From the human T2T-CHM13v2.0 reference genome, Homo sapiens, in NCBI RefSeq assembly GCF_009914755.1, contig NC_060936.1: DNA of 64,000 nucleotides; one strand, 5' to 3'. Shown piece by piece: positions 22,219-23,630 of the stretch (its first letter is position 1; every line of letters begins with the position of its first letter). The translations under genes were made by a program, and so were the position numbers. Below the pieces are notes generated by a model. The model worked only from the letters and a program-made list of their open reading frames with translations. It was not told the DNA's origin and ran no database searches.

Positions 22219-22455
22219 TATATTTTACTTCTTTAATATTTGGCAAAGGCTTCAGGATCTTATTGACGCCAATCACTTTTCAACTGCCTAGTTCAAGTAA
22301 GAGATTCAAAGGAACCCTCCTGTTTACTGTTTTGCTTTGAATCCTCTTCCTTATGATGCTCAGCATTCCACTGGCTCGTTTAAATACACCAGTGTATTGG
22401 GTAAGGAATGACGGATGACGACTCCCAGACTTGTTCCTGTAATTCCATTCACTAC

Positions 22456-23630
22456 ATCAAACCTGTTGATACAGGATACAGTGAACCTTGTAAATTTTTC
22501 ATTACTGAAAGGATTCAAAAAAGTTTGTAAAGCGTTAGTACAGTACCTGCCACATAATAAATGTGCCATAAATGGTGGCTTTTATGATTGACAATTGGTC
22601 CCAATTGGAATCCTGCTTTTCCTCTCTTGCCAGCCTCATTCTTGGCCTCATACTGCATCAGCCACATTGCGTTTTCCCAAATGTGCTGTGCACTCTTATG
22701 CCTCCATACCCTTATAGATGCTGTTCTTATTAAGTAGTTCCATTCACTACATCATCATATTCAGTTGTTTTTCCTACAGTGACCCTTACAGAAGAGCATC
22801 TGTCATTTTTCTTCTTTATTCGTAATAAAAATTTCCCAAGATTATCTCCAGCACCTTGGCATTTCACTGCTGTAAAGAGCATGTCTGGAGATTTCACCAT
22901 GTGCTTCAGCAGGTAATTTATAGATGATTTTTAACCCACACACCAATATTTCATGACCTGTCTCAGCATTCATTCTTAGATGACCACATTGTTAATACTT
23001 CCCCATATAGATCATCACCCATTTATTCCAATCATCTGGATTCCTAACAAAACATTTTCCCATTTTCTTTAGTAACCAATGGTGTAGAATCTTGTCATTA
23101 TTGTTTGAAAACCTAAATATTACATCCCTTGTTTCCTTACTCAGTCTCAAAGAACTCAGGTAATATAGTCGAAATCTTAGAGGCCAGGAGCAGTGGCTCA
23201 TGCCTGTAATCTCGGCACTTTTGGAGGCTGAGGTAGGAGGATCGTTTGAGCCCAGGAGTTTGAGACCAGTCTGGACAAAATGGTGAGACCCCATCTCTAT
23301 TTATAATAATTTTTAAAAACTCATAGAAATGTCTCCATAGATAAACTACTCAGTAGGTAATAAGAACAGCATCTTTAAGGGTATGGAGGCATAAAAGTGC
23401 ACAGCACATTTGGGAAAATGCAACGTGGCTGACACAATGAGGCCAAGAATGAGGCTGGCAAGAGAGGAAAATCAGGATTCCAACTGGCACCAATTGTGAA
23501 TCATAAAAGCCACCATTTATGGCGCATTTATTATGTGGCAGGTACTGTACTAATGCTTTACATTTTTTTAAATCCTTTCAGTAATGAAAAATTTACAAGG
23601 TTCACTGTACTCTCTATCAACAGATTTGAT
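22456..23630. repeat. Local inverted repeat: arms 22456-22739 and 23344-23630
   Basis: Manual alignment gives about 18 substitutions and 3 small indels over about 285 bp; ORFs 22360..22569(-) and 23496..23681(+) share FLNPFSNEKFTRFTV. Confidence 0.95.
23222..23300 (+). mobile_element. Partial Alu monomer
   Basis: Left-arm fragment. Confidence 0.75.

What the first reader, a model, noticed from the sequence alone, without database searches (positions are those of the whole stretch)
22443..23630. Locally templated inverted insertion flanked by a perfect 17-bp direct repeat
Seen: 22456-22739 is an inverted copy (about 93% identical) of 23344-23630, about 600 bp away. It is flanked by TTCCATTCACTACATCA at 22443-22459 and 22738-22754, with microhomology to the donor at both junctions (ATCA, TT). 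There is no poly(A) tail and no terminal inverted repeat, and the shared sequence is too similar to be two independent old repeats. Inference: a fossil of staggered-break repair with template switching (Pol theta/MMBIR-like). It sits between the GNPTAB 3' end and the SYCP3 promoter, so read-through RNA could fold into a ~280-bp hairpin (ADAR or endo-siRNA substrate), and the spacer could invert.
Basis: partly seen in the sequence, partly recalled or inferred. Interest (0 to 1): 0.7.

Follow-up and report, generated by a model that had tools for sequence, protein, structure and literature searches.

The report
Old DNA-copying scar beside SYCP3
A 284-base stretch next to the human SYCP3 gene is a reversed copy of DNA 600 bases away, bracketed by a 17-base repeat and missing from an old X-chromosome duplicate of the same region; it is likely an ordinary scar of a DNA-copying slip tens of millions of years ago, with no function shown.

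Summary
Arm 1 (22456-22739) is the reverse complement of 23344-23630 (262 of 280 aligned bases identical) and sits between two perfect 17-mers. An own-genome search found only these two full-length copies. A decayed, intron-containing SYCP3 duplicate on chrX (67-69% identical) runs through both flanks and lacks arm 1. That supplies an empty site and makes arm 1 the copy; it only weakly favours one 17-mer over two. Junction homology is 4 nt on the left; on the right it is 2 nt, extending to 5 of 6. The target fits the L1 endonuclease motif poorly against in-window Alu controls. Best reading (0.8): a single microhomology-mediated local template switch of the published '4-before-1' type, about 30 million years old under an assumed rate. 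It is larger than any event in the great-ape gold-standard set (maximum 128 nt). Whether a fork switch or Pol theta repair made it cannot be decided. The RNA-hairpin idea has no transcript support, and 2 of 7 nearby inverted Alu pairs form stronger duplexes. Verdict: a clean but ordinary mutation fossil.

The parts
22443..22459 (+). Left copy of the 17-nt target duplication; its last 4 nt (ATCA) are also the first 4 nt of the inverted copy
22439..22442 (+). Imperfect leftward extension of the direct repeat (3 of 4 match 22734-22737), making the right-junction homology 5 of 6
   Evidence: (D6)
22456..22739 (-). Arm 1: inserted inverted copy of the donor; lacks 7 donor bases near its right end; absent from the chrX paralogue
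22738..22754 (+). Right copy of the 17-nt target duplication; its first 2 nt (TT) are shared with the donor
22755..23343 (.). 589-nt spacer; 22751-23182 is colinear with the chrX paralogue, in the same orientation as the left flank
23183..23299 (+). Alu monomer inside the spacer (7SL-derived; Rfam SRP match below the gathering score), 83% complementary to the Alu at 22103-22222
   Evidence: (I2)
23344..23630 (+). Arm 2: donor. Its part 23503-23563 matches short pieces elsewhere in the genome at 81-88% (an old dispersed-repeat fragment; the labels MIR/L2 are recalled, not tested)
22222..22441 (+). Left flank, 69% identical to chrX G000:C23:151530711-151530934, directly adjoining the match of the right flank

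Best explanation
Arm 1 is a reversed copy of the stretch 600 bases downstream, inserted with a 17-21 base duplication of the target, likely in one microhomology-guided DNA template switch in a primate germ line roughly 30 million years ago (inferred from an assumed rate). Committed mechanism, read on the + strand, every step inferred: (1) a growing strand ended at 22459; (2) its last 4 bases (ATCA) primed on the opposite strand about 880 nt ahead (23630); (3) it copied about 285 nt back towards the break, either skipping 7 nt near the end or losing them later; (4) its new end paired, 5 of 6 bases with a G-T wobble, with the original template 17-21 nt behind the exit point; (5) synthesis resumed and re-copied those bases. 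In the four-point scheme this is a 4-1-3-2 ('4 before 1') event; its mirror reading is a fold-back on the minus strand. Of the 0.8 confidence I put about 0.5 on a replication-fork/MMBIR-type switch and about 0.3 on Pol theta repair of a staggered break. The product is most likely neutral.
For: Shown: the direct repeat brackets arm 1 only, and homology to the donor stops exactly inside each repeat copy. The chrX paralogue aligns to 22222-22441 and 22751-23182 with 18 nt between the two anchors, against 309 nt in the window. The arm 1 core scores 53.0 against that chrX stretch, with 44 of 60 shuffles scoring as high, while the flanks score 195 and 229. The same paralogue also lacks the Alu at 21900-22220, as an older outgroup should. 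Only 2 full-length copies among 5 genome matches. A 17-mer staying perfect is compatible with the arms' divergence (P = 0.32). Arm 1 carries the donor's base at the single mismatch of the 21-nt repeat, as a returning nascent strand would leave it. From print: Walker et al. describe many '4 before 1' switches that leave a direct repeat plus a single large inverted insertion (PMC7954356; passages and the second part of section 8). [quoted passage not shown]
Against: No primate orthologue was available, so the date and the single-step origin are inferred. The chrX outgroup favours one 17-mer over two only weakly (split-alignment score 169.5 vs 164.5; 153.5 for none; best 171.5 at 288 nt removed), and the 17-mer itself is poorly conserved there. 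The two chrX hits are mirror arms of one palindrome (99.8-100% identical), so they are one outgroup. The paralogue has no donor homologue, so substitutions cannot be assigned to an arm. The event is larger than Walker's gold-standard set (median 12, maximum 128 nt, template searched within 100 nt). With the 21-nt boundary the target is 3 mismatches from TT/AAAA, within the tail of the Alu controls (5 of 19 had 3-4).
Confidence: 0.8

Rival explanations
1. Variant nested inside the best explanation: two offset nicks gave a break with 3' overhangs of 17-21 nt. One end folded back or invaded the donor, Pol theta extended it, the ends joined by microhomology, and fill-in duplicated the overhang.
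For: In mouse ES cells, breaks with 3' protrusions repaired by TMEJ give microhomology-associated tandem duplications, occasionally with in-cis templated inserts (PMC5730883; passages). [quoted passage not shown] Inverted orientation is what an in-cis fold-back gives.
Against: That paper defines flanking templates as within 250 bp and finds that cNHEJ dominates at protruding ends in wild-type cells. Here the template is 590-876 nt away and about 285 nt long. That Pol theta inserts are usually much shorter is recalled, not from a call.
Confidence: 0.3
2. RNA-templated origin: a minus-strand read-through RNA (GNPTAB direction) was primed internally by the nicked target and reverse-transcribed, either as an L1-made tailless retrocopy or as repair from RNA still tethered at the locus.
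For: The duplication length (17-21 nt) is within the L1 range of 8-30 nt. There is no tail, and the 3' end is complementary to the target (2 nt, 5 of 6 extended); tailless retropseudogenes show 2-18 nt (PMC5322556; passages). The + strand of arm 1 equals minus-strand RNA, the direction of both neighbouring genes.
Against: The target is 6 (plus) or 5 (minus) mismatches from TT/AAAA at the 17-nt boundary and 3-6 over all 12 boundaries tried. Of 19 Alu target sites called among 26 full-length Alus, 14 had 2 or fewer and none had 5 or more (crude TSD caller, 7 not called). The site has no run of four A as in the tailless consensus TT/WAAAAWW. Landing within about 1 kb of the source is about a 1-in-a-million event for a diffusing RNP (arithmetic on genome size). 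Target-primed synthesis would keep the target's base at the mismatch, but arm 1 has the donor's. No transcript is annotated over the donor.
Confidence: 0.1
3. The arms are much older (for example two old repeat fragments) and were made similar later by gene conversion or hairpin-templated correction; the 17-mers are incidental.
For: Part of each arm matches an old dispersed repeat.
Against: The chrX paralogue has no arm 1 at all. Similarity covers the whole arm, while the genome-wide matches cover only about 60 nt. The longest identical run (39 nt) is not in excess (P = 0.67). The 17-mer placement has p about 1e-4.
Confidence: 0.04
4. Two independent insertions of a young dispersed repeat.
For: None found.
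Against: Own-genome searches found only the two local copies at full length; the other matches were 50-62 nt at 81-88%. These searches skip very common words and give lower bounds.
Confidence: 0.01

Closest known systems
Short-range template switch, four-point model, '4 before 1' type (Walker et al. 2021, PMC7954356; passages and the second part of section 8 read)
   Same: Reverse-complement copy of nearby sequence, return point behind the exit point, a direct repeat in the descendant, and the look of one large insertion.
   Different: The copied fragment is about 285 nt (their median 12, maximum 128) and the template is 590-876 nt away (they searched within 100 nt). The event is likely older than the great apes.
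[quoted passage not shown] 2020, PMC7025897; passages read)
   Same: Same topology: duplicated segment, normal spacer, second segment copied in inverted, two junctions on one chromosome, explained there by copy-and-paste synthesis.
   Different: This case is germ-line, presumably fixed, and tiny (17 nt and 285 nt); theirs are somatic structural variants.
TMEJ tandem duplication with in-cis templated insert at 3'-protruding breaks (Schimmel et al. 2017, PMC5730883; passages read)
   Same: Duplication of the overhang, microhomology at the joins, insert copied from the flank.
   Different: The template here lies beyond their 250-bp flank class; no enzyme can be assigned.
Tailless retropseudogenes (Noll et al. 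2015, PMC5322556; passages read)
   Same: Target duplication of L1-like length, no oligo(A) tail, end complementary to the target.
   Different: The target lacks the TT/WAAAAWW consensus, the source is unannotated DNA 600 nt away rather than an abundant RNA, and there is one copy only.

Membership tests
Four-point template switch, '4 before 1' | Inserted segment is the reverse complement of a nearby ancestral segment | tested here: met
Four-point template switch, '4 before 1' | Return point precedes the exit point, leaving a direct repeat | tested here: met
Four-point template switch, '4 before 1' | Evolutionary direction resolved by an outgroup lacking the insert | tested here: met
   chrX paralogue lacks arm 1; one versus two 17-mers is only weakly resolved
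Four-point template switch, '4 before 1' | Short range as searched in the published scan (template within 100 nt; an operational limit, not a mechanistic one) | tested here: not met
   template is 590-876 nt away (limit)
Local 2-jump (Dup-invDup topology) | Two duplicated segments joined by two inverted junctions on one chromosome | tested here: met
TMEJ / Pol theta product | Microhomology at the junctions | tested here: met
   4 nt, and 2 nt extending to 5 of 6
TMEJ / Pol theta product | Dependence on Pol theta | not testable with these tools
   fossil event
L1-mediated tailless retropseudogene | Target duplication of 8-30 nt, no tail | tested here: met
L1-mediated tailless retropseudogene | A-rich endonuclease target (TT/AAAA or TT/WAAAAWW) | tested here: not met
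   5-6 mismatches at the 17-nt boundary, best 3 over 12 boundaries; 14 of 19 Alu controls had 2 or fewer
L1-mediated tailless retropseudogene | Source is an expressed RNA | not testable with these tools
   no annotated transcript over the donor; none of the 8 Rfam matches in 21200-25000 overlaps an arm
Young dispersed repeat | Further full-length copies in the genome | tested here: not met
   2 of 5 matches are full length, both local; lower bound
ADAR / endo-siRNA hairpin substrate | Arms can pair in one strand | tested here: met
   predicted only:
ADAR / endo-siRNA hairpin substrate | Both arms transcribed in one RNA, with editing or small RNAs on them | not testable with these tools
   no expression data; AATAAA hexamers in the spacer on both strands

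The most novel reading that the evidence does not exclude
A germ-line fossil of RNA-templated repair in cis: a break upstream of SYCP3 was patched by reverse-transcribing chromatin-tethered read-through RNA from 600 nt away. That would explain the L1-length target duplication without an L1 motif or tail, the 3' complementarity, the orientation matching the local direction of transcription, and the proximity. Such mid-size local inverted copies with target duplications could form an uncatalogued class between the short template-switch scans and the structural-variant scale.
Probability: 0.07. Interest if true: 0.6.

Novelty: new member of a known kind. Interest (0 to 1): 0.2.

Why it matters
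As it stands it is a clean worked example of a known mutation type, at a size (about 285 nt, template about 0.6-0.9 kb away) that the published great-ape scan could not have seen. If present in some primates and absent in others, it is a usable phylogenetic marker. It would matter more if the arms were shown to be transcribed and edited in testis next to the SYCP3 promoter, because the duplex is non-Alu sequence and any small RNA from it would be locus-specific, or if many such events shared an RNA-templated signature. Neither is shown.

Tried and rejected
Young dispersed repeat: rejected. Tandem repeat or RNA gene in the arms: only two homopolymer runs in 21200-25000; 8 Rfam matches, all below the gathering score and none on an arm. 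Host sequence as a processed pseudogene: the ORFs prompted the check, but the flank homology belongs to an intron-containing genomic duplicate of the SYCP3 locus. Polarising the 18 substitutions: impossible, as there is no donor homologue in the 24 chrX stretches searched. Gene conversion between arms: no excess identical run. A global alignment with cheap gap extension scattered the chrX junction bases over the arm and was uninformative; I replaced it with anchors and a split alignment. Background: this was the only non-repeat local duplication (100 nt or more, 85% or more, within 5 kb) in 299 kb of human sequence held. That is not a rate, because the window was chosen for it and the chrX stretches are partly redundant. 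Literature on this locus: one search (GNPTAB, SYCP3, inverted, intergenic; 41 papers, 15 listed, listing only) showed no title about it. Searches were for mechanism classes. A recalled paper on short paired duplications ('doublets') was not held and is not used as evidence.

Full report
1. Observation. Window 22456-22739 is the reverse complement of 23344-23630: 262 matches, 18 substitutions, gaps of 7, 2 and 2 nt; K2P distance 0.067. The 17-mer is identical at 22443-22459 and 22738-22754 and has no other copy in the window. At the left junction the last four bases of the 17-mer (ATCA) are also donor sequence. At the right junction the first two (TT) are, and the repeat extends four more bases leftward with one mismatch, where arm 1 carries the donor's base. 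Arm 1 lacks seven donor bases, seven bases from the right junction. That end can be read either as donor sequence with a 7-nt gap or as a 21-nt target duplication with one later change; I prefer the first, since seven bases match the donor exactly. The net insertion is 295 nt. The eleven repeat bases not shared with the donor have a chance of about 1e-4 of matching at both ends.

2. Not a young repeat. A search of the own genome with arm 2 gave 5 matches: the two local arms and three pieces of 50-62 nt at 81-88% covering query positions 160-220. Searches with arm 1 plus flanks and with the donor plus downstream DNA added only more short pieces. The tool gives lower bounds and skips very common words. 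The short pieces point to an old repeat fragment inside the copied segment; the names MIR and L2 are recalled, not tested.

3. An empty site inside the genome. The spacer matched two chrX loci at 68%. These are mirror arms of one palindrome, so they count once. The chrX sequence aligns to 22222-22441 (69%) and 22751-23182 (67%) with 18 nt between the anchors, against 309 in the window. The arm 1 core has no similarity to it (score 53.0; 44 of 60 shuffles as high), while the flanks score 195 and 229. It also lacks the Alu at 21900-22220. It is the upstream part of a decayed, colinear, intron-containing duplicate of the SYCP3 locus (window 9477-18657 at 61-68%). The arms are 93.6% alike and the chrX copy 67-69%, so arm 1 arose long after that duplication. 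Limits: the 17-mer is poorly conserved on chrX, and the split alignment prefers one copy over two only by 169.5 to 164.5, with a plateau at 288-300 nt removed. No donor homologue was found in the 24 chrX stretches.

4. Age. 18 of 280 differences give a Jukes-Cantor distance of 0.067 (95% interval 0.040-0.107). Split over two arms at an assumed 0.8-1.5e-9 per site per year (my assumption), that is 22-42 million years, with extremes of 13-67. A perfect 17-mer at that distance has P = 0.32, so the repeat and the arm can be the same age. Error-prone synthesis would make the event younger, and conversion would make it older; no conversion tract is evident.

5. Mechanism. Shown: polarity, junction homologies and topology. 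Inferred: one synthesis event. On the + strand the order of switch points is 4-1-3-2. Walker et al. state that when point 2 lies ahead of point 1 the switch must be between strands, and that '4 before 1' events leave a direct repeat and look like a single large insertion (PMC7954356). The mirror reading on the minus strand is a fold-back. The + reading explains why arm 1 keeps the donor's base at the mismatch, though a staggered-break join with a G-T mismatch could resolve the same way. I give 0.8 to a local DNA-templated switch: about 0.5 fork/MMBIR-type, because of the length and distance, and about 0.3 Pol theta at a staggered break (PMC5730883; PMC11081867). An L1 or RNA-templated origin gets 0.1. 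The duplication length, missing tail and orientation fit it (PMC5322556), but the target is 5-6 mismatches from TT/AAAA at the 17-nt boundary. It is 3 at best over 12 boundaries, whereas 14 of 19 called Alu sites in the window had 2 or fewer, 5 had 3-4 and none had more; 7 of 26 Alus gave no call. The proximity to the source is also unexplained for a diffusing RNA.

6. Function. A 1221-nt minus-strand RNA would fold arm against arm (-595 kcal/mol, no shuffle control at this length). The arm duplex is predicted at -440 (plus) and -456 (minus) kcal/mol. The 7 inverted Alu pairs within 2 kb of each other in this window range from -335 to -486; 2 of 7 are stronger and lie inside the GNPTAB pre-mRNA, and 5 of 7 are weaker. 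No annotated transcript covers the arms, the GNPTAB end is 3.1 kb from arm 2, and AATAAA hexamers occur on the minus strand at 26005, 24074, 23527, 23022 and 22815 and on the plus strand at 22556 and 22824 (matches, not proven signals). Rfam finds nothing on the arms. The spacer keeps the orientation of the chrX paralogue. The element is most likely neutral, but expression data were not available.

7. Comparison and novelty. It works like, and by topology belongs to, the '4 before 1' template switches and the local 2-jumps (PMC7025897). It exceeds the size and range of the great-ape scan. It is not filed as a tailless retropseudogene because the target motif test failed. I saw passages of PMC7954356 (plus the second part of section 8), PMC7025897, PMC5730883, PMC11081867, PMC5322556, PMC3789554 and bioRxiv 10.1101/2021.03.30.437712, not their whole texts or supplements. 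One search listed no title on this locus (15 of 41 papers listed, listing only); the library lacks most subscription papers. Verdict: real, well resolved, a new member of a known kind; interest 0.2.

Noticed in passing
window 3412-23182 versus G000:C23:151.427-151.437 Mb (-), 151.457-151.466 Mb (+), 151.510-151.531 Mb (+) and 8.588-8.599 Mb (loci L012-L014, L020-L024, L033-L034): chrX holds at least four decayed, colinear, intron-containing copies of the SYCP3 locus at 58-72% identity, with exon remnants found by tblastn and Cor1 (PF04803) hits. Three lie in one cluster near 151.4-151.5 Mb. A preprint names the SYCP3-derived X-linked families as Xlr3/4/5 in rodents and FAM9A-C in primates, and PMC3789554 says the mouse Xlr cluster occupies the region of the human Xq28 PNMA6 cluster. 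These may therefore be human relics of the Xlr3/4/5 locus; synteny was not tested. Searches returned nothing, and the listings of 29 and 41 showed no title on them. Possibly more interesting than the assigned finding.
   Followed up: partly
G000:C23:151.385-151.417 Mb and 151.518-151.550 Mb (L012-L019): Inverted segmental duplication with arms of at least 32 kb, 99.8-100% identical (97.8% over 2.2 kb at the inner edge). Each arm holds an intact 1256-aa single ORF with MUM1-like PWWP and PWP3A/B C-terminal domains.
   Followed up: partly
G000:C1:19121015-19121330 and G000:C8:43394852-43395151: Cor1 (SYCP3-family) matches that span exon boundaries and contain stops; likely processed pseudogenes.
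   Followed up: no
window 21900-22220 with 20929-21224 and 23183-23299: The Alu just left of the finding is inverted relative to Alus on both sides, so its possible pairings interleave with the arm 1/arm 2 pair. It carries an internal 17-nt A run at 22079-22095 against its T-rich orientation.
   Followed up: no
window 23640-24080: Sequence right of the donor looks like an old LTR-type element (MLT1 label recalled, not tested); the own-genome search gave no match there other than the locus itself.
   Followed up: no
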